A stretch of 63,975 nt of DNA, the filler included, from Basidiobolus ranarum (lineage: Eukaryota): assembly GCA_040143965.1 (NCBI GenBank). It is 3 parts of 3 records of this genome, joined end to end, with 100 filler letters (N's around TTAATTAATTAA, not from the genome) between each part and the next. Parts side by side here need not be neighbours in the genome. Positions count along the whole stretch, not along the records: positions 21,931 to 43,733 come from JASJQH010000197.1; 2 more parts are not named here. The stretch is one strand, 5' to 3'. The notes below the pieces were generated by a model. It did not search any database. It was not told the DNA's origin and saw only the letters and a list, made by a program, of their open reading frames with translations. Shown in pieces: positions 27,997 through 39,135 of this stretch (position 1 is the first letter of the stretch; the number at the start of each line of letters is the position of its first letter). Both the position numbers and the translations under genes were made by a program.

Positions 27997-29291
27997 TCAA
28001 TAATTTTGAACTAACAAAAGTTTGGATGATGTAGCAGGTTGTCTACACAATGGGCATTCCGGCTATTGAAATCAAAAAGTTAGCAGGCTGTGAAGACAAG
28101 AGAAGAGTGCTTCCAGAACTAACCTTATTTCGACACCATTCACAAATACAAGTCCAGCAGAACAAATGCCCACATGGTGTAGCCGTTGTGTTCTTTCGGG
28201 GAGACAAACATAGTGTGCATGATTGTGCGGACGAGGCTCCGACATCCATAGAAAAGTCCCTATTCATTCGACATGTTAACGAAAATTATACCTAAAGTTA
28301 CCAAAAAACCCCCATATTTACATATCTATATCCGCTTCTTCTTCCTCTTTAGGTTTCTCCACTAGTCTCTCACGATAAGAGAGAAATCCTTTCACCAACA
28401 ATTGGATAACAATCAATACACCAAGAATCTCGTAACCAGCACGCTCTTCACCCTTGCGCAACTGTCGAGTGAAAATCTTGTGGCAAAGTGATGTAAGCAA
28501 AGGATAAGATAAACACTAGTTAACAAACATCCAAAATACTTACGTAGCGTACTCCAGTGAATCTTTTAGAAAAATGATAATAAGCTCCAAAGAAATAGAA
28601 GATTGCCATATGAGCTGATCTCACATAAGTAGTGAAGAAACTTTGAACTTTGCTAGAGTTCTCAGTTAGCCAAGTTTGTAACTTCCTTTTTACACTTTGT
28701 TTTTCTTCCTCCACTACGGCAACTAGTAATGATTAATTCTGGACAACAACAACCACATAGAAAAGTGAGGGAAAATGAACCTGTATTTAGTTGTCTTTGA
28801 CGACCATTCTTTCTTAAGTCTGTGAGTCCTCTTGCAACGAGATATGGGGTACAGACATTAAAAAAGACTTGTATAAAACGACGTATAAAGTTTGGATATA
28901 CTCCAGTTTCTTTGGTCACTTGTAAAACATCACAATACTCTTCACCTAAAGTTTGAGAACCCAGCAACGTAGTCAAAGCGAAATAAGTAAACTTTGAGAA
29001 TAAATTGAGTTCGTTCTGAAGTTTTAGCTGTCGTCTAGTTCCCAACCAATCCTGGAATACTCCAACTATTTTTTCTTCCAATACTTTCTGGTAATACACG
29101 TCTTTCTGGTTGGCTCGAATGATGTCGGGTTGAGCGCCAGGTGGTAAAGACAGTTTCAAGGGAATACGAACACGGTCATGGTCGAATCTTTGCTCTAAGG
29201 GTTGACTTTGTGTTGTGGAAGTCATGGAGGGACTATTATCATTGTTAGTGGAAGTCATGGAGGGACTATTATCATTGTTAGTAGAAGTCAT
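27997..29291 (-). CDS. PEX10: Peroxin 10, RING-finger peroxisomal E3 ligase, multi-exon
   Basis: [54 protein letters not shown], and RING CTLC...[16 protein letters not shown]..|PECPLCRQ. Confidence 0.93.
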
Positions 29292-29293
29292 GG
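29215..29293. repeat. 33-bp coding tandem duplication at PEX10 N-terminus ([11 protein letters not shown] x2)
   Basis: (GTGGAAGTCATGGAGGGACTATTATCATTGTTA)x2 plus a partial third unit. Confidence 0.92.
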
Positions 29294-29613
29294 TTAATAT
29301 TGAAAGTGGGGACAACGGACCTTGCAAGTGGCTCATACACTCATCACGCATAATCATGTGATATTTGATTATCAGTTGGATTTCAGCTTACAAATAAATC
29401 AATCTGTGATGAGTAACAATACAGAAATGGTTTATTCTAATATTAGGTTACTCCAAGTGCTCAGAGTTGATTTCATTATGTTCAAATGTTCGCATCAAAA
29501 AATGTACAATGGGAAAGTGTTCAAGATGGTGGAAGGGATTGAGGGAGTGAATTAGGAGAAACTAGGGACAAAATAGGTGGGCAGCAAGAGAGAGAGAGGA
29601 GTAACGTAGATAT

Positions 29614-30462
29614 CTAGAGGGTACATACTCCACGCCAGGGTTCAACTCTTGCGGGGAATGTTTGCTTGTAGATGGAGTCATATTGAGTGGACTTCCATGA
29701 ATCCATTTGCATACGAACAGCACTAATATAATGATCAGTCATCTTTGATTTACTTGAAGTAGAGTTCCAATTATTGCGCTCCAAGGCCCTCTTCTTATGA
29801 TGAGCTACAAGCAAAGCATTTCGAACTTCACTTAGGAGTTCCAAGTTCCAAGATTCATATATTTCCGTAGATACGTGTAGATTATACTTGATACAACCAA
29901 GGAATTCCAATTCTAAGTCGTTCACCTTTGATAATTCCGAGTTAGTGTAACGTGCCCAATCCATATTTAAGGGACTATTCTCCTGATGGTACTTGGAGGC
30001 CGCTATTAAAGCACCAATGAAGGTATTCTTCGCAAAGCATAATCGATCGTCATGATTGACAGTAGAATGTCCGTCGAACTCTAACCCTAACCCGCCATCT
30101 TCAAATAAAGGGGTGGTTAAGCCCATCTCCTCTAGACAATATTCTTGATTGAGCAGGTTACTTCCTATAATCCCACGTAGTTTGTACAGGTAATACAGAG
30201 AGATCATTACTGTTGAATAAAATACTCTAGAGGTTTTCACTGTCTCCCGAACAAATCCTCGAAATATCAAACGTTTCGTACGGGATACTGAGCCAAAGGG
30301 ACTCCAGACCCGATCGATTACGTATTCGACTGCGTCTACAAGGATTAGAGTTAATTGATTTACAATACAGCATATGCCTTGAGAAAGGTGCTTAGAAAGA
30401 TGCTTACCAACAAGGGATTCCAGGCCTCCATTGATATCATTTCCAGTATTGGTGTAGTGCAT
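29614..30462 (-). CDS. Pho80/Pcl/Clg1-type cyclin
   Basis: FRGFVRETVKTSRVFYSTVMISLYYLYKL...FIGALIAASKYHQEN...WARYT...VNDLELEFLGCIKYNLHV cyclin box; first ATG at 30462. Confidence 0.85.
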   Translation of the reverse strand: MHYTNTGNDINGGLESLVGKHLSKHLSQGICCIVNQLTLILVDAVEYVIDRVWSPFGSVSRTKRLIFRGFVRETVKTSRVFYSTVMISLYYLYKLRGIIGSNLLNQEYCLEEMGLTTPLFEDGGLGLEFDGHSTVNHDDRLCFAKNTFIGALIAASKYHQENSPLNMDWARYTNSELSKVNDLELEFLGCIKYNLHVSTEIYESWNLELLSEVRNALLVAHHKKRALERNNWNSTSSKSKMTDHYISAVRMQMDSWKSTQYDSIYKQTFPARVEPWRGVCTL

Positions 30463-30528
30463 ATTAAAATTCAAAATCTATCGCAGACTGCACTTTAAAT
30501 AATGAAACAGCGGGTGGCTTCAAGGTAG

Positions 30529-30598
30529 ATATATGACTAGAAGATGGGTCGATTACTAGCAATATATGACTAGAAGATGGGTCGATTACTAGCAATAT
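30529..30598. repeat. 33-bp tandem duplication upstream of cyclin gene
   Basis: (ATATATGACTAGAAGATGGGTCGATTACTAGCA)x2 plus ATAT. Confidence 0.9.
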
Positions 30599-31548
30599 CG
30601 AAGGATTTAATTTATATATGATACTACCTAAGATACTACCTACCTGAGATGACATATGGTATATATAGTAAACAGCCACACACCCCTGTGACTCTTAGAT
30701 AATGTATGTCTGGAGTGATCGAGGGGAGGTATCAAGGGTTAGGGCTAGTATGAGTAGTGTATTAAACTAGTGTTATGATTGAGATCACATAATTGACTTC
30801 ACCCGATTACATAATTTAAATGTAACAAGTCAGACATAGAGTAGAAATCCAACAAGTCAGACATAAAGCTACTGTTGGGTAGAAATCTAACAAGTCAGAC
30901 ACATCATATAGTAGATGATGATCTCCGTAGTAGGGCTAGGGTAGGGCGCTACTCGTAGATCGACTACTATTTAACCAAGATTTTCATTGTAAGCGCACCG
31001 TTTCATCTTGTATTACAACTCTAGTTGACAATAGCGCTCAGCATCAATGACTAACGAAACAGTTGGCGAAACATTAATGAAACAGTACATCAGTGAAACA
31101 GAACGGGAGTAAGCTTAACAAACCTCTTTGTCGTATTTGATCATCATTATATGGACAGCCTGGATCTTTCAATAGTGATAGTTTGCATGAAGTGGTTACC
31201 GAGATGCGATGAAGAGTTATTACCAAGACGTAGGTGTGGATGGATTGCTAATGCACACAGATACGCACAAATGCAGACAAATCGACGTACACGTATACAC
31301 ACATAGCCAGTCCATTGTATTTTAAAGTTCCAATATGTCCCGGTCTAAACGATCTTTTACCGTGCTTGACCGTACAGAAATTGGGCTGGCTCCGCAAAAG
31401 TTCGGAGTTTAAGCGATGTTGTCAGAGTATCTCAGAAATGGTTTAAATAGATTTCCATTCCCATTTCGATGCTACTATAATTGTCCCTCTATTTAGCCGG
31501 TACTGCTCTATTTAACCAGTATTTATATACCTTTGCTTATTCTTTGGT

Positions 31549-34500
31549 ATGTCACGTATACCAACATGGTATACCATCTCTCCGTCCTCTGATCCGGTCG
31601 TTGAATTCTTCCATGCGATAAACCAAGACGATGTAGATAAAGTCAGTGATCTACTTAACCAGCAGCAGTTTGATCTAAATTATATCCGAGACGAGGATGG
31701 TCGTGCTCCTCTAATGGTGGCTGCCATCCGGAATCGAACCCAAGTGTTGGAATTTCTTGCCAACTGTACCCAAGTTGATCTGGAATTGAGAGGTTTGTAT
31801 TCTTTTCATGACAGCGAAGATTCCATTTTGGATGTTTGCAAAGCAACTTTCTTATCCTCTTCTTTCTTTACGTTTCTATTTCCAAGAAAGATAATGAAGG
31901 AAACACGGCTCTGTACAAAGGATGTGCCACAGGCGCTACAGGTGCCGTAGAATGTTTGCTTAGAGCTGGAGCCAATGTCGATGCCGAGAATAGGGTAAGA
32001 CTGTCGTAGAATTGGTATGTCTTATAAGTGAAGCTAATCCAATGATTTTAGGAGCAAAGCACTCCATTGATTATTGCCGCTTACAACGGCCATTCCTCAC
32101 TTTGTAGCTTTCTAGTAGGTTTTGGTCACGCAAATATCAACCACCGGGATGTTACACATAAGACTGCTTTAAGCTTTGCTAGCTTCGAAGGACACGATGA
32201 AACTGTAGAAGCATTACTGGAAAGAGGTGCTGAAGTGGATTGTGTAGACAAGGTCTTTATTAGTCACAATTTCGTACTGATTAGGATGACATCTAACTAT
32301 TTACTGATTTCCAGTTCGGTTGGTCCGCTCTAATGTTGGCTGCACACGCTGGAAAAGCTTCTGTTGTACAGAAACTTGTAGATTACGGTGCGGATACCAC
32401 TCTTGTAACAGATAATGGTAAAACGGCGGAAGATTTGGCTAGAGAGGCTGGTCGCTTAGCTATAGTACAGATTTTGTCTGAATGTATTGTGCCGAATATC
32501 GCCAGTAAGAGGCCTACAATCCCTACTCCGATACCTTTCAGCGTTCGTCCAAAGTCCCGGATTCTGTCGAGGGAGCATGGTAGCTCGACACTCTCCCCCT
32601 TCTCAAGCGTACTCAGTGAAAATCGATCTACGGTTGTAGGCTCACCTAATTCTTCTGCAACTCTAACTGATCGCCTAACCCCACAACAAAACGAATTGTC
32701 AATCGATTACCTCAAATCACACAACTATCGTTCTTTCTCACAGAAACCAATCTCACCCGAGTATAATGTAGCTAACGAAAGACCAGTGACCACATCTATG
32801 ATGAAACCTATCAAACCCTTGGGTGAGTTTTCTTGGGATCAAAGTCAATGGGAAGATCTTTCCAATGAGAAATCTGACTGGAACATCAAGTCACCAATCC
32901 CTATCAAATTGCACCGACGACAATCACATTCTTCGTTCGAGAATCAGCGACCATTAATAGAACCTGAAATCCGTCGACGACGACCACCACAAGCACATGT
33001 ATCAAACAATATCTCTACAGCTGGTGGTCAAGATAACTCCACAGACTCTCGAAGATTGTGGGAAATAGCTTCCAAACTTCTAACCTGCTGTTGTCTTAAC
33101 CACTGTCTGATAGATTGTGGCAAGTTAACCGATCCTGATGTTCGACAAGCATGGAGAGAAAAAGTCTCTCTTTGTATCATAATATTTCTGATCTCTTCTT
33201 TCCTTGGTTTTTTAACTTTCACTTTCTCCACTGTGGTTTGTCGTCAAGGTCCACCCATTTTTGCTGAAGATGTAGCACATAAATATGGATTTGAAGGTAA
33301 AGGAATGCAACTGATGGTCGTTCGTGGTAGACTGTATAATGTAAAGGATTATTTTCGGTTCGGATATCACCGACCGATACTTCCTTTCGCAGATGAAGAT
33401 CTTGCCTCAGTTGTTAATCCCCTGTTGGGCCAGGATATTAGTGAATTTTTTCCGATTGATAAATTCTCTTCTAAATGTCGAAAGTGGCCCTTAAGACCGA
33501 GTTGTGCTTTTGAAGGAAGTGATAAGCGTTATCACTGTCATAGCAGTCCAATATCTCGAAAGACTTTAGAATCTTTGAGTATTCATAATTTTGTCGCTTT
33601 CTCTTGGGAATCGATACAAGAAAAAGAGAGGAAATTATTTGTTTACAATGATAAGGTTTTTTCCCTCGATCTTTATTTATACAATAATGAGACGTATCTG
33701 GGAGATTCTCACTTTACTTCGAAATTGTTGAAACTCATAGGAAGAGATGCCACTAGAGATATAATAAGGGATCGTACCTTGAAAGCGGTTTTACCCTGCT
33801 TTGAAGATCAACTCTTGGTTGGGATGGTGGAGGGTTCTAGTACCGGTTGCTTCGCTTCAAACTTGTTGATAGTTGTATCAAGTGTTATTTTAGTGGGTAT
33901 CATCCTGATCAAATTTGTTTCTGCTGTAGCATTCGACTGGTTTTTATCAAGACAACTGGGGAAAATCACCAAAAAATCGCATCCGTCGGATCCTATAAAG
34001 CCCATCATACTTCTCGTTACTTGTTACTCCGAAGGGGAACACTCCATACGAACGACTTTGGACTCGTTGGCTCTGACGAGTTATGATGATGAATACAAAT
34101 TACTCTTTGTTATATGTGATGGAGATATTGTGGGCGCTGGAAACGAGAAATCTACACCCAACATTGTACTCGACATTATAGAGCCATTTGACTCAGCTGC
34201 ATCTATTCCCGAGCCTGCCTCATATATTGCGGTGGGAGATGGCGCGAAGCAGCACAACATGGCCCAAGTTTATATTGGATTTTACCGATGTCAAGGTCAC
34301 CGTGTACCAATATTAGTGGTGGTAAAATGCGGCACGCCCAACGAAAAAGACACCTCCAAAGCTGGTAATCGCGGTAAGAGAGATTCTCAGCTGATATTGA
34401 TGCAGTGGCTTAGCAAAATATGTCTAAATGAGAAGATGACTCCGCTTGAATATGAATTGTTTGAGAAAGTCCGAATTTTGATGAACTTTACCCCTGATCA

Positions 34501-36374
34501 ATTCGAAATGGTTCTAATGGTAGATGCTGACACTCTGGTGGAGGAGGAAAGTGTGAGCCGGATGGTGGCTGCTATGGAACGTGATTCTAACGTGATGGGT
34601 CTTTGTGGAGAAACCAAGGTAGCAAACAAGAAGCAAACATGGGTGACTATGATTCAGGTATTTTGCATGTTTTGTTCCAGACTTTGATGGATTCTAAAGG
34701 AGAAAATGCCGTTTATAGGTTTACGAATACTACATATCCCATCACCTCGGTAAAGCCTTCGAATCAATATTTGGAGGTGTTACTTGTTTGCCGGGATGCT
34801 TTTGCATGTATCGGATCAAAGCACCCAAGTGCAACGATTATTCAGTTCCCGTACTAGCCAATCCAGAGATAGTTGAACTCTACTCCTCCAATGATGTCTC
34901 AACTCTCCACCAGAAGAACCTGCTTTTGCTGGGAGAGGATCGATATCTGACCACATTGATGCTGCGTACTTTTCCCAAACGCAAAATGATCTATGTACCA
35001 AAAGCCATTTGTAGAACTGTAGTTCCTGATGAGTTTCGAGTGTTGCTAAGCCAACGTCGTCGCTGGATCAATTCTACAGTTCACAATCTACTCGAACTTA
35101 TTTTGGTTCCACAATTGTGCGGGATCTTCTGTTGCTCAATGCAATTTGTGATTCTCTTGGAGCTTCTAGGAACTGTTATAATGCCGGCATCTTTTGTATT
35201 CTTCCTTTTTTTGATCTTGGCCGCGTTTACGGGAGCTGATGTCTGGTTGCCTCTGATATTTATGTGCATCGTTTTCTTTCTACAGACGCTTTTAATTGCT
35301 ATTACCACCCGAAAGATGGGCTACGTGCTTTGGATGTTTGTTTTCATCTTAGCAATGCCCATCTGGAATTTCGCACTTCCAATCTATGCTTTCTGGCATT
35401 TCGATGACTTTTCTTGGGGGACTACGAGGAAAATTGACGGTTTAGATAGTGGCCACGGAGGTGAAAGAGATTTTGAACAATTTGATCCGAGTGTCATTCC
35501 AACCAAGCATTGGCACGAGTGGAGTGCTGAGAACCGTGATTCCACCAGTGAAGATGACGAAAACCCAGCTAGACCTGACTCTGAGGCGGAGTATTTCAAG
35601 CGTAACATATACAATATACCTCATCAGAATAGAGATCTTGGTGTAATCAATGAGGATGAAATCGTTGAGGATGTGGTGGTTGATCCGACGAACCATTACA
35701 ACAGATATGCCCTGGAATCTACTCTTCGATACCCCACGACTAACATGAATAAACTCCCCAGTCTAAGAGGCTCTAAAAAATACATGTCACAGAGAAAACA
35801 CTTCAGTGAAGGAAGTTACATTTCTGAACAGGGTAAAGCCCGTCGTTACAGTCGACTTTGTGGCCCTCGTCCATATCAAGATTATCATCGTGGAGTTCCC
35901 TACTCTTTTATTTCACCGGCTACCTCACAGGCCAACTACCCTGCGGAACTATATCACTCTCGACAGTCTCATTACTCAAGGCCCATCTCTGCATCACCAT
36001 TTCCTTATCAATTTCACAACCAAGTACGGCAAACAATTACTCCAGGTGAGTACATCCCACGCATGCAGGCTGCACGGTCCCTCGCTATGGAACCTACTTA
36101 TTCGTTCCCCTCTTATAAATATCCTCCTTTTCCACATGCACAGTATCAGAACTCACGATACTCCACACCACTCGGTCGTCCTATAACCTCCAACGGTCGC
36201 CTGTACAGTCAGACACCTTCTTGGAGTGTGCCATACCAATATTACTCCTCACCTCTTTCGAGTAGAACCTCTCTAGCAACCACCGCAATCCCTTTACACC
36301 GGACATCAGTTGAATCAAGACCTCAGGCAAGACTCAATGGTCCCCGAGGGTACACAGTTTTGCAACCATTCTGA
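31549..36374 (+). CDS. Ankyrin-repeat / chitin synthase (division 2, class IV-like) fusion protein, ~1515 aa
   Basis: join(31549..31792,31891..31994,32052..32252,32315..34657,34719..36374); all introns GT-AG and frame-preserving. Ankyrin repeats: GRAPLMVAA, GNTALYKG, STPLIIAAYNGH, KTALSFASFEGH, GWSALMLAAHAG, GKTAEDLA. Then AWREKV, a cyt-b5-like region, VTCYSEG, GNRGKRDSQ, MVDADT, LGEDRYLT, QRRRW, DDFSWG. Confidence 0.92.
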
Positions 36375-36590
36375 ATCAAGTATTTCTTGTAAATAAAACA
36401 AGATACCCATTATTTATCTCAATAAGAATAATCATGCCCTGAATGTCAACCACAAACAAATATTTCATCAACAGTAAGGCCCTTTTTTGAAATAATTTAT
36501 TTAAGAAAGGTACACACATATGTGCCGGTATGACCCAACCCTTCCCACATTCGAGAGTATATGAAAAAGGGGAATAAATTGGACAAAAAG

Positions 36591-37323
36591 TTAACGATTG
36601 CCTAAATGAAGAGAATAGATATTTAGTGGATGTTATTGGAAATATATCAAGATGAAAGAATAACATACTCTTGGCGACACGCTCCAATTCATCCTTCTTC
36701 TTGATGGCGTAACTGTTAGCAGATCCCTTAGCAGCGTTGATAAGCTCATCAGCCAAACATTCAGCAATGGTCTTAACGTTTCTGAAAGCAGATTCACGGG
36801 TACCAGTGGTCAAAAGATGAACGGCTTGGTTGACTCTTCTCAAAGGAGAAACATCCACGGCTTGTCTACGAACAGTACCGGAGCTACCAATACGAGTGGA
36901 ATCTTCACGAGGACCAGAGTTGATGAAAGCATCAATAAGGACTTGAAGAGGGTTTTGGTCGGTAAGAAGGTGGACAATCTCGAAAGCGTGCTTGACGATA
37001 CGAACGGCCATGAGTTTCTTGCCGTTGTTACGTCCGTGCATCATAAGAGAGTTGGTAAGACGTTCAACGATAGGGCACTATAAACAAGATTAGGGTTAGG
37101 GTTGGATTCGAATCCAAAGTAAAAGTATAACTCGGTCACTTACTTGAGCCTTTCTGAACTTCTTGGTAGCATATCTACCAGCAGTATGAGGCAAGTAGAC
37201 AGGAGCTCTGATTTGAAGGTAGTCAGTCAAGGAGATATCCTTGATTTCAAGATCTTCATAAGACCATTTGTTGAAAAGTTGGATGCCTTGAGCCTCAGCG
37301 GTGATTTCAGCAGGAAGAGCCAT
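36591..37323 (-). CDS. RPS5: 40S ribosomal protein S5 (uS7)
   Basis: complement(join(36591..36601,36669..37077,37144..37323)); [49 protein letters not shown]. Probable extra 5'-UTR intron at about 37337-37440. Confidence 0.97.
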
Positions 37324-37809
37324 GTTTTGTTTCCCCTGTAAATAAACATTAATATTGATGATTACGATGGATGGTCACGATGGATGGATGTAAAAAAGGA
37401 TTCTTGCGATATTGCTGCATAGATAATCCCGAAAACTAACCGTAGTACTGCAGGATGACAACCGACAGAAAAGAACGTTCACCTTTCGCTAAGCAGTGAA
37501 TTTTGTTCATTTCTCGATCATACTCATAGCCAATCATCATTGATCAAAATAACAATCTTTCCCTGATCTTGATTTGGGGGTAGAACCGAATAGATTCTCC
37601 TTAAATTATCAATTTTTATCATCGTATTTTGAATGGGATTCTCTTCAAATGAGGGTTTATTTTGAAAATGGTAATTTTTTCTATTCACTTTCAAATCAAC
37701 CATTATGCTTATTGTATTTGACTTAATATCTGGTAATTTAGAAAGAATTTCCTTTAAGTTGGATATATAACTTAAAAGTGGGCCCACGTTTGACTGTAGA
37801 CATATAGCG

Positions 37810-39135
37810 ATGGTAAGTTACTACGTTCGAAAGCTTCAAAACAACCTACTCTATGACTCTAACGTGATAGCTTACCAACATGTCCACTTCCCCATAGAAT
37901 TTTACGAGAAGAGCACAACAGAATGAGAAAGTGAAAACCTTTGTTGGGTTTACCAATTCAAGGTAAATTGAAGGATATTATGAGATTATTTAGGTGAAAT
38001 TTACTTTGAGAAGCCATCGATATTTGTTAATATTCTTCCTTCTTTTTTGCATCTAGTGAGAAAGTTGCTCGTGAAAATTTGGAAGCTTTTAATTGGAACG
38101 TTCAACGTGCGGTCGATGGATATTTCAGTCGTTCCATGACTTCCAACAATAAAAGTGCTTCAAACTCCATCCCCATAAACTATCAACAACTAAGTGATGT
38201 GTTCGAGGTGTATAAAGGTTTGACCTTTCATTCGTAAAAGCTTCAAACACAATCTTAACAGTATATTGATATCGTTATGGTTCTTATTCTAAAGATTCCG
38301 ATGAAGACGCTATTCTAGTGGAGGGTACAGAACAGCTATGTAATGACCTCGAGGTAGATCCTACCGATGTGGTTATGTTGGTGGTAGCTTGGCATCTTAA
38401 TGCTGAACGTATGTGCGAATTCAGTAGAAAGGGATTTGTTGATGGATGGGCTTCTTTAGGGTAAAAGAAATGAAGTAAAATCTATAGAATTGAAAGAATG
38501 TACATAACATCCATACAACCATAGATGCGACGATTTAGAAAAGATGAAAAAGATCATACCAAAATTAAGAGAGGAACTAAACGACGAAGAAAAATTCAAA
38601 CAAGTATACCAGTTCACTTTTAAATTTAGTAGAAGCGAGAATCAAAAAAGTTTACGTATGTATTTTACATATATGCATATCATTTTTATTATATTAACCG
38701 GGATGAATATATTTGGCTCATGTATAGCTCTTGATATCGCTATTTTGCTGTGGCAACTTCTTCTCGAAGGACGTTATGATCATCTTGATGTGTGGATCCA
38801 ATTTTTACAAGAAAAACACGGAAAGGCCATCTCTAAGGATACCTGGAATTTGGTTGGTTTTCAATAAGAAGATTTCATGTGAAGAATGTGTTTAAAGATT
38901 TCTTTAGTTCCTAGATTTTATCAGAAGCTCTCCACACGACTTCAATGGCCACGATATGGAAGGTTTGTATGTCATTTACTACGGATGTGGCTTTCATTTA
39001 CTAAAGTTACATTAATCTACAGGTGCCTGGCCAGTACTTATCGACGAGGTAATTCCAAGCTAATTTAATGTTTAGAGATTGATTTTATTAACATTTGTTC
39101 AGTTTGTGGAGTATGCTCAAGAGCAACAAAAATAA
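37810..39135 (+). CDS. DCN1: DCN1-like cullin neddylation E3 (UBA-like + PONY/Cullin-binding domain), many short exons
   Basis: ATG|GTAAGT first micro-exon; exons give EKVKTFVGFT, LEAFNWNVQRAVDGYF, EGTEQLCNDLEVDPTD..LVVAWHL.A..MCEFSR, FKQVYQFTF, QKSL, KAISKDTWN, GAWPVLIDE|FVEY; stop at 39133-39135. Confidence 0.9.

What the first reader, a model, noticed from the sequence alone, without database searches (positions are those of the whole stretch)
31549..36374. Chitin synthase with an N-terminal ankyrin-repeat module
Seen: four apparently separate ORFs join through four canonical introns into one ~1515-aa frame. The last ankyrin repeats and the synthase share a single exon (32315..34657), so the fusion does not depend on splice prediction. 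Architecture: about 6 ankyrin repeats, S/P-rich linker, TM, cyt-b5-like region, GT2 core (EDR and QRRRW intact), TMs, long low-complexity tail. Established: division 2 chitin synthases normally carry a disordered N-terminus (class IV) or a myosin motor (V/VII); ankyrin repeats are not part of the standard classes. Inference: a built-in protein-interaction module may replace a trans-acting activator or targeting factor such as Chs4/Skt5-type partners, or myosin-based delivery.
Basis: partly seen in the sequence, partly recalled or inferred. Interest (0 to 1): 0.75.

Follow-up and report, generated by a model that had tools for sequence, protein, structure and literature searches.

The report
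Ancient ankyrin-bearing chitin synthase lineage
This fungal gene encodes an intact cell-wall chitin synthase with a protein-binding ankyrin module at its front end, and it belongs to a very old branch of these enzymes, shared by mycorrhizal and other early-diverging fungi, that the main published classifications I could check do not name.

Summary
Five exons joined by four GT-AG introns give 1515 aa, identical to the public model P0001 (Basidiobolus ranarum). Ankyrin repeats and the synthase domain share exon 4, and a paralog has the same four intron positions.

It is not a one-off fusion. Ankyrin-bearing division 2 synthases occur in Rozella, Blastocladiomycota, Zoopagomycota, Endogone, Calcarisporiella and many Glomeromycota. 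They form one clade (96/89) that is sister to all other class IV enzymes sampled. AU tests reject joining it to IVa, IVb or a third class IV clade. None was found in Dikarya, Mucorales or Mortierellales.

The only printed trace I found is one supplementary row noting ankyrin in one Rozella protein (Liu 2017).

Most likely it is an active chitin synthase whose tethered cytosolic ankyrin module binds a conserved partner that positions or retains the enzyme (inferred, about 0.5). Replacement of Chs4 or myosin delivery is not supported at genome level, since Chs4-like, Chs7-like and myosin-type genes coexist. No RNA or binding evidence was obtained.

The parts
31549..31792 (+). Exon 1: start codon, ankyrin N-cap and repeat 1 (aa 1-81)
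31793..31890 (+). Intron 1 (98 nt, phase 1, GT..AAG; in-frame alternative acceptor at 31899)
   Evidence: same position in paralog
31891..31994 (+). Exon 2: ankyrin repeat 2
   Evidence: Ank E 5.8e-5
31995..32051 (+). Intron 2 (57 nt, phase 0, CTAAT branch)
32052..32252 (+). Exon 3: ankyrin repeats 3 and 4
   Evidence: Ank E 1.6e-14
32253..32314 (+). Intron 3 (62 nt, phase 0, CTAAC branch)
32315..32485 (+). Exon 4 start: ankyrin repeat 5 (invariant W186, M190) and C-cap (aa 184-240)
32486..33055 (+). S/P/R-rich disordered linker (aa 241-430), 17% mean identity in the family
   Evidence: pLDDT under 50 in the homologue model
33056..33250 (+). Cys-rich juxtamembrane segment, QAWREK motif and first TM segment (aa 431-495)
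33251..33835 (+). Predicted lumenal/extracellular region with the cyt-b5-like PF22997 domain (aa 610-686) and conserved cysteines
   Evidence: side of membrane inferred from hydropathy and PMC12653383
33836..33949 (+). Second TM segment (aa 691-728)
33968..34657 (+). First half of the GT2 Chitin_synth_2 domain, including DADT
34658..34718 (+). Intron 4 (61 nt, phase 0, inside the QVYEY motif)
34719..35528 (+). Second half of Chitin_synth_2: EDR (34935-34943), QRRRW (35052-35066), C-terminal TM helices, SWG motif
35529..36374 (+). S/P/R/Y-rich low-complexity tail and stop codon; not conserved in the family

Best explanation
A catalytically intact division 2 chitin synthase of a fourth, very old class IV lineage. 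It arose by duplication before Rozella split from other fungi and gained an N-terminal ankyrin module, most likely once. SHOWN: gene structure, domain order, intact motifs, clade and distribution among sampled proteins. INFERRED: the enzyme polymerises UDP-GlcNAc at the plasma membrane like Chs3. The ankyrin module sits in the cytosol on a flexible tether and uses the concave face of its last repeats to bind one conserved partner (a trafficking adaptor, or a cortical or septal scaffold). That binding sets where and for how long this isoform works. It would occupy the regulatory slot filled by short sorting signals in Chs3 and by the myosin head in class V/VII, giving a division of labour among coexisting paralogs rather than replacing Chs4.
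For: Clade: in a FastTree of 255 of 261 rows, all 56 ankyrin-labelled rows fall in one 68-row clade (support 86). In IQ-TREE with 68 chosen rows the clade has 96/89, and the other class IV rows form a sister clade at 100/99. Rozella has one member in each (P0225, P0199). Activity: EDRxL and QxRRW in 61 of 61 clade members checked, QxxEY in 60 of 61. Module maintained: 41% mean identity against 17% in the linker. A family profile scores 25 of 25 held-out members at 163-344 bits, against at most 147 for 117 unrelated short ankyrin proteins. Concave-face positions are more conserved than convex ones in 7 of 7 units. W186 and M190 are invariant in 24 of 24 rows. The last repeats are the part kept in the shortest members (Rozella P0225). 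Tether: 84-451 residues in 54 of 55 members, 34 in one, and low confidence in the AlphaFold2 model of homologue P0122, which fits a freely moving binding domain. Background: the Chs3 N-terminus mediates oligomerisation and AP-1 sorting, and the class V/VII N-terminus mediates delivery (PMC12653383).
Against: No partner is identified, and there is no expression, localisation or activity data. The W-x-x-L-M motif also occurs in 37 of 119 short ankyrin hits (51 of 59 in the family), so it is only partly family-specific. My concave/convex position sets come from a recalled ankyrin consensus, and the alignment is rich in Glomeromycota. Two clade members with long N-termini have no ankyrin (P0138, P0006). 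One metagenomic protein with N-terminal ankyrins (P0334) fell outside the clade in FastTree, so a single origin is not airtight. Sampling is the top hits to the query, which favours close relatives.
Confidence: 0.5

Rival explanations
1. Built-in activator or autoinhibitor: the ankyrin module folds back on the catalytic domain of its own or the partner subunit, standing in for Chs4 or gating activity.
For: Chs4 is a helical-repeat protein thought to bind the Chs3 catalytic domain (PMC12653383; SEL1 family). The module and the GT2 domain are predicted on the same side of the membrane. The tether is long enough.
Against: Chs4-like genes are kept in the same genome, though the ordinary class IV paralogs could account for them. 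Tether length varies about fivefold.
Confidence: 0.2
2. The module is an oligomerisation or quality-control element that helps dimer formation and ER exit, perhaps together with a dedicated Chs7-family chaperone.
For: Chs3 oligomerises through its N-terminus and needs Chs7 for ER exit. A Chs7-family gene lies head to head with the paralog on C214.
Against: No Chs7-family hit lies on the window gene's contig C197. The linkage was seen once, after the fact, and could not be checked in other genomes.
Confidence: 0.12
3. The clade makes a special product, such as short chito-oligomers for signalling, and the module recruits modifying enzymes.
For: Glomeromycota hold two paralogs, one fast-evolving. 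The SWG motif is absent in 14 of 61 members, mostly that second paralog or truncated models.
Against: The domain set is that of a wall-polymer class IV synthase. The abstract of PMC7403392 (search listing) reports lipo-chitooligosaccharides in 53 of 59 fungi across most phyla, far wider than this clade.
Confidence: 0.08
4. The module is a neutral passenger, or the fusion is a gene-model artefact.
For: The module is absent in two long-N-terminus members. The clade is missing from several lineages. The own paralog is frameshifted in this assembly.
Against: Same-exon fusion, conserved introns, and the same position and order from Rozella to Glomeromycota with conservation far above the linker's.
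Confidence: 0.1

Closest known systems
Class IV chitin synthases (S. cerevisiae Chs3 type; classes IVa, IVb, IVc of Goncalves 2016, PMC5122149; IVa, IVb of Li 2016, PMC4734345)
   Same: TM, cyt-b5-like region, TM, Chitin_synth_2, TMs; no myosin head, no DEK_C; inside superclass IV against class V (100/100).
   Different: Folded ankyrin module in place of a disordered N-terminus; a separate clade sister to the rest; joining to IVa, IVb or the third clade is rejected (p-AU 0.006, 0.0006, 4e-6); not found in Dikarya or Mucorales.
Class V/VII myosin-motor chitin synthases
   Same: Division 2 core with a folded cytosolic N-terminal module that could direct the enzyme.
   Different: No motor, no DEK_C, different clade; the genome keeps both kinds.
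Rozella allomycis EPZ33276.1, listed in Liu 2017 (PMC5353729) Table S3 as the only CHS with PF12796/PF13637
   Same: Same architecture and same clade (P0225).
   Different: There it is a singleton filed as CHSIV among domains said to show no clear pattern; here it is an early-branching member of a clade spanning at least four phyla.

Membership tests
Chitin synthase (GT2, Chitin_synth_2) | PF03142 above the curated cut-off | tested here: met
   774 bits against cut-off 27
Chitin synthase (GT2, Chitin_synth_2) | QxxEY, EDRxL and QxRRW motifs (Liu 2017 criterion) | tested here: met
Chitin synthase (GT2, Chitin_synth_2) | Makes chitin from UDP-GlcNAc | not testable with these tools
   needs an enzyme assay
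Division 2, superclass IV | N-terminal TM(s) plus a cyt-b5-like domain before the catalytic domain | tested here: met
   hydropathy; PF22997 E 2.7e-13 in the query; PF00173 itself hit only in some relatives
Division 2, superclass IV | Groups with class IV against class V in a tree | tested here: met
   100/100, rooted on class V rows; same with a more distant outgroup in FastTree, 98
Class V/VII | Myosin head (PF00063) and DEK_C (PF08766) | tested here: not met
   neither found
Class IVa | Member of the clade holding the Ascomycota class IV enzymes | tested here: not met
   p-AU 0.006; IVa identified here by its three Ascomycota rows, not by the papers' reference sequences
Class IVb | Member of the Basidiomycota-containing, Ascomycota-lacking clade | tested here: not met
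   p-AU 0.00055; IVb identified by Rhizoctonia rows and the description
Class IVc (Mucoromycotina, Goncalves 2016) | Member of the clade of the Mucor/Rhizopus/Phycomyces IVc sequences | tested here: inconclusive
   No published IVc sequence was in my trees. By eye, two Mucor IVc excerpts resemble the third clade P0198/P0224/P0036 more than the ankyrin clade. Joining to that third clade is rejected (p-AU 4e-6).
Ankyrin-repeat domain | Tandem 33-residue helix-loop-helix repeats | tested here: met
   Pfam Ank_2 E 6e-33; seven helix pairs at pLDDT about 90 in the homologue model; 2.0 A to a DARPin over 224 columns
   Chs4-like genes present in the genome; dependence needs genetics

The most novel reading that the evidence does not exclude
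The last common ancestor of fungi including Rozella already had a third way of aiming a division 2 chitin synthase, besides Chs3-type sorting signals and the myosin head. An ankyrin adaptor coupled a dedicated synthase to a specific conserved partner. This system was lost in Dikarya, Mucorales and Mortierellales, so model fungi never showed it, and it was duplicated in arbuscular mycorrhizal fungi, where one copy may build a stage-specific or symbiotic wall.
Probability: 0.35. Interest if true: 0.75.

Novelty: new variant of a known kind. Interest (0 to 1): 0.56.

Why it matters
Chitin synthases are core wall enzymes and antifungal targets, and their classes were drawn mostly from Dikarya and Mucorales. 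A deep sister lineage of class IV with its own folded regulatory module changes the count of division 2 synthases in the fungal ancestor. It gives a defined, soluble bait (about 225 aa) for finding how early-diverging and mycorrhizal fungi position chitin synthesis. It also flags an annotation problem: many public models are cut before the ankyrin part or named 'ATP-dependent RNA helicase', which probably hid the clade from earlier surveys.

Tried and rejected
One-off or lineage-specific fusion: rejected.

Splice-prediction artefact: rejected.

Stand-alone form of the module: among the 120 listed of 1525 shorter hits, only P0281, P0382 and P0399 were close. They are contig-end or exon-end fragments of family members. 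No separate orthologue was seen, but the search is word-limited.

Origin of the ankyrin module: the PDB and ESM Atlas gave only generic ankyrin proteins, so no donor or partner can be named.

Solved class IV structure: none; the best PDB hits are division 1 and oomycete synthases and hyaluronan synthases.

Acidic dileucine sorting motifs: none in the cytosolic N-terminus or tail of the query.

P0297 (Nowakowskiella) has ankyrins at the C-terminus and lies outside the clade. I treat it as unrelated or a merged gene model.

Earlier scan findings: none on this architecture.
Full report
Observation. The gene is real at the stated coordinates. Exons 31549-31792, 31891-31994, 32052-32252, 32315-34657 and 34719-36374 join through four GT-AG introns into a 1515-aa frame without internal stops, identical to the public model P0001, which the source names Basidiobolus ranarum and mislabels 'ATP-dependent RNA helicase'. 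Pfam finds ankyrin repeats in exons 1-4. Exon 4 alone holds the last ankyrin repeat and cap, the PF22997 cyt-b5-like domain and the first half of Chitin_synth_2; EDR and QRRRW lie in exon 5. Intron 1 is the weakest (AAG acceptor, no branch motif found, in-frame alternative 9 nt on). A paralog on G000:C214, the only other own-genome match to exon 3 (2 matches among 31 candidates), has introns at the same four positions and phases (by eye). No RNA evidence could be obtained.

Anatomy. Residues 15-240 form five full ankyrin repeats with caps. An AlphaFold2 model of the homologue P0122 shows seven helix pairs at pLDDT about 90, a linker below 50, and overall pTM 0.52. The fold search returns chitin and hyaluronan synthases and DARPins. 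After the linker come a Cys-rich juxtamembrane stretch, a TM segment (465-492), a region with conserved cysteines and the cyt-b5-like domain, a second TM (691-728), the GT2 core, C-terminal TMs and an unconserved tail. With one crossing on each side of the cyt-b5-like region, the ankyrin module and catalytic domain share the cytosolic side. That topology is inferred, and it agrees with the extracellular placement of this region in the review PMC12653383 (passages).

Distribution. Two word-based searches (best 120 of 1142 and of 6902 hits listed) and one full HMMER search (best 150 listed) found the ankyrin plus Chitin_synth_2 architecture in four phyla. These are Rozella (P0225, found through the cluster of a truncated model); Blastocladiella and Sorochytrium; Basidiobolus, Entomophthora, Syncephalis and Coemansia; and Endogone, Calcarisporiella and many Glomeromycota genera. 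No named Dikarya, Mucorales, Mortierellales or Chytridiomycota protein fell in the clade, although proteins of all four groups were among the hits. These absences are limited by top-hit lists.

Phylogeny. In a FastTree of the catalytic and TM region (255 of 261 rows; six fragments dropped, P0147 among them), all 56 ankyrin-labelled rows sit in one clade of 68 rows (support 86). Many rows are near-copies (Coemansia, Rhizophagus). Of the 12 rows without ankyrin, ten are short or N-terminally cut models; six of them (P0154 and five Rhizophagus fragments) share a 90% cluster with ankyrin-bearing proteins. Two (P0138, P0006) have 179 and 715 residues of other sequence before the QAWREK motif and may be losses or model errors. 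An IQ-TREE of 68 hand-picked rows (742 columns, LG+G4, no mixture model) gives the clade 96/89 and its sister, all other class IV rows, 100/99. Rozella has a member in each, so the split predates Rozella. AU tests reject joining the clade to IVa (p 0.006), IVb (p 0.00055) or a third class IV clade (p 3.7e-6); these groups were chosen after seeing the tree and identified by taxon content. Adding 119 of 130 new representatives placed six more rows in the clade, all Coemansia or Glomeromycota, and left two ankyrin-bearing synthases outside. P0297 has C-terminal repeats. P0334 is an unnamed metagenomic protein with N-terminal repeats and a cut C-terminus, and it is unresolved. Glomeromycota carry two paralogs, one on longer branches.

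How it probably works. The catalytic motifs are intact across the clade (EDRxL and QxRRW 61 of 61, QxxEY 60 of 61), so chitin synthesis is the expected activity. The ankyrin module is under selection: 41% mean identity to the query against 17% for the linker. A family profile scores 25 held-out members at 163-344 bits, while of 119 short ankyrin hits only two, both family fragments, exceed 147. Positions on the concave face are more conserved than those on the convex face in all seven units, most clearly in the last repeats (position sets from a recalled consensus), and W186 is invariant in 24 rows. The related motif is also present in 37 of the 119 short hits, so this is suggestive only. The tether varies from 84 to 451 residues (one model 34). 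In yeast the Chs3 N-terminus handles oligomerisation and AP-1 sorting, Chs4 activates at the membrane, and class V/VII enzymes are delivered through their myosin head (PMC12653383, section 7 read). I therefore favour a tethered adaptor that binds a conserved partner and fixes the place or lifetime of this isoform (0.5). Rivals are a built-in activator or inhibitor (0.2), an oligomerisation or ER-exit role (0.12), a special product (0.08) and a neutral passenger (0.1).

The genome has two SEL1-repeat ORFs with a CaaX-type end; the one tested has an Atlas cluster named 'Chitin synthase 4' as first hit (score 0.96; the CaaX trait of Chs4 is recalled). It also has Chs7-family matches on 14 contigs, 11 ordinary class IV loci and 9 class V-type loci among 22 own loci placed in the tree. 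So the module adds to these systems at genome level. Whether this enzyme needs Chs4 is untested.

What is in print. Six full-text searches listed no paper that describes ankyrin-bearing chitin synthases; I judged most from titles and abstract starts. 'Ankyrin' does not occur in the main texts of Goncalves 2016 (PMC5122149; passages, one of eight parts of section 3, 12 of 20 supplements searched), Liu 2017 (PMC5353729; passages, section 4, 12 of 13 supplements searched with file 1 cut, Table S3 read whole) or the 2026 chytrid paper (PMC13561034; passages). The listing shows zero occurrences for Li 2016 (PMC4734345; passages, section 5, 8 supplements searched) and for the 2025 review. Li 2016 says only Cyt-b5, myosin and DEK_C accompany division II. 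[quoted passage not shown] PMC8778642 and PMC4471660 mention ankyrins and chitin synthases separately (passages); PMC6733946 supplements (12 of 19 searched) added nothing. Most subscription journals, figures, unsearched supplements and bioRxiv supplements were not seen, so the clade may be drawn or named somewhere I could not read. Automatic domain databases already display the architecture.

Verdict. A real gene and a member of superclass IV, but not of IVa or IVb, and probably not IVc. It is an apparently unnamed ancient variant with a conserved ankyrin module. The evolutionary claim is well supported (about 0.85); the mechanism is inferred. Interest 0.56.

Noticed in passing
L031:2075-3274 (G000:C214:7125-8261, minus strand): A Chs7-family chitin synthase export chaperone gene lies head to head, about 1 kb upstream, of the ankyrin-synthase paralog. 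Not checked in other genomes.
   Followed up: partly
L031:4238-8540 (G000:C214): The paralog keeps all four intron positions but has a frameshift early in its last exon in this assembly; the public model P0147 stops at 1035 aa without EDR/QRRRW and has an over-long N-terminus. Pseudogene or assembly error.
   Followed up: partly
G000, 14 contigs: The Chs7 family is strongly expanded in this genome, with tandem or paired copies on C381, C508 and C7135, alongside 65 Chitin_synth_2 matches.
   Followed up: no
P0227, P0141, P0143 and relatives: Glomeromycota have a second, faster-evolving ankyrin-synthase paralog; several members lack the SWG motif (TWG in P0227).
   Followed up: partly
P0001, P0147, P0130, P0140, P0007 and Coemansia members: Many NCBI models of this clade are named 'ATP-dependent RNA helicase' with no helicase domain, a systematic mislabel.
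   Followed up: partly
L027 and L029 (G000:C1215, C796): Two divergent Chitin_synth_2 ORFs (893 and 873 aa) lack exact EDR and QRRRW strings; used only as outgroup.
   Followed up: no
window 30527-30600: A direct tandem duplication of about 37 bases just upstream of the cyclin-like ORF, seen by eye.
   Followed up: no
window 28043-30477 and 36376-38867: Neighbours are housekeeping genes: Pex2/Pex12-family RING gene, cyclin-like ORF, ribosomal protein S5/S7, cullin-binding DCN1-like gene. No wall-gene cluster around the window gene.
   Followed up: yes
P0297, P0007, P0004: Probable merged gene models: C-terminal ankyrins on a chytrid class IV synthase (P0297), and extra unrelated Pfam domains on P0007 and P0004.
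   Followed up: no
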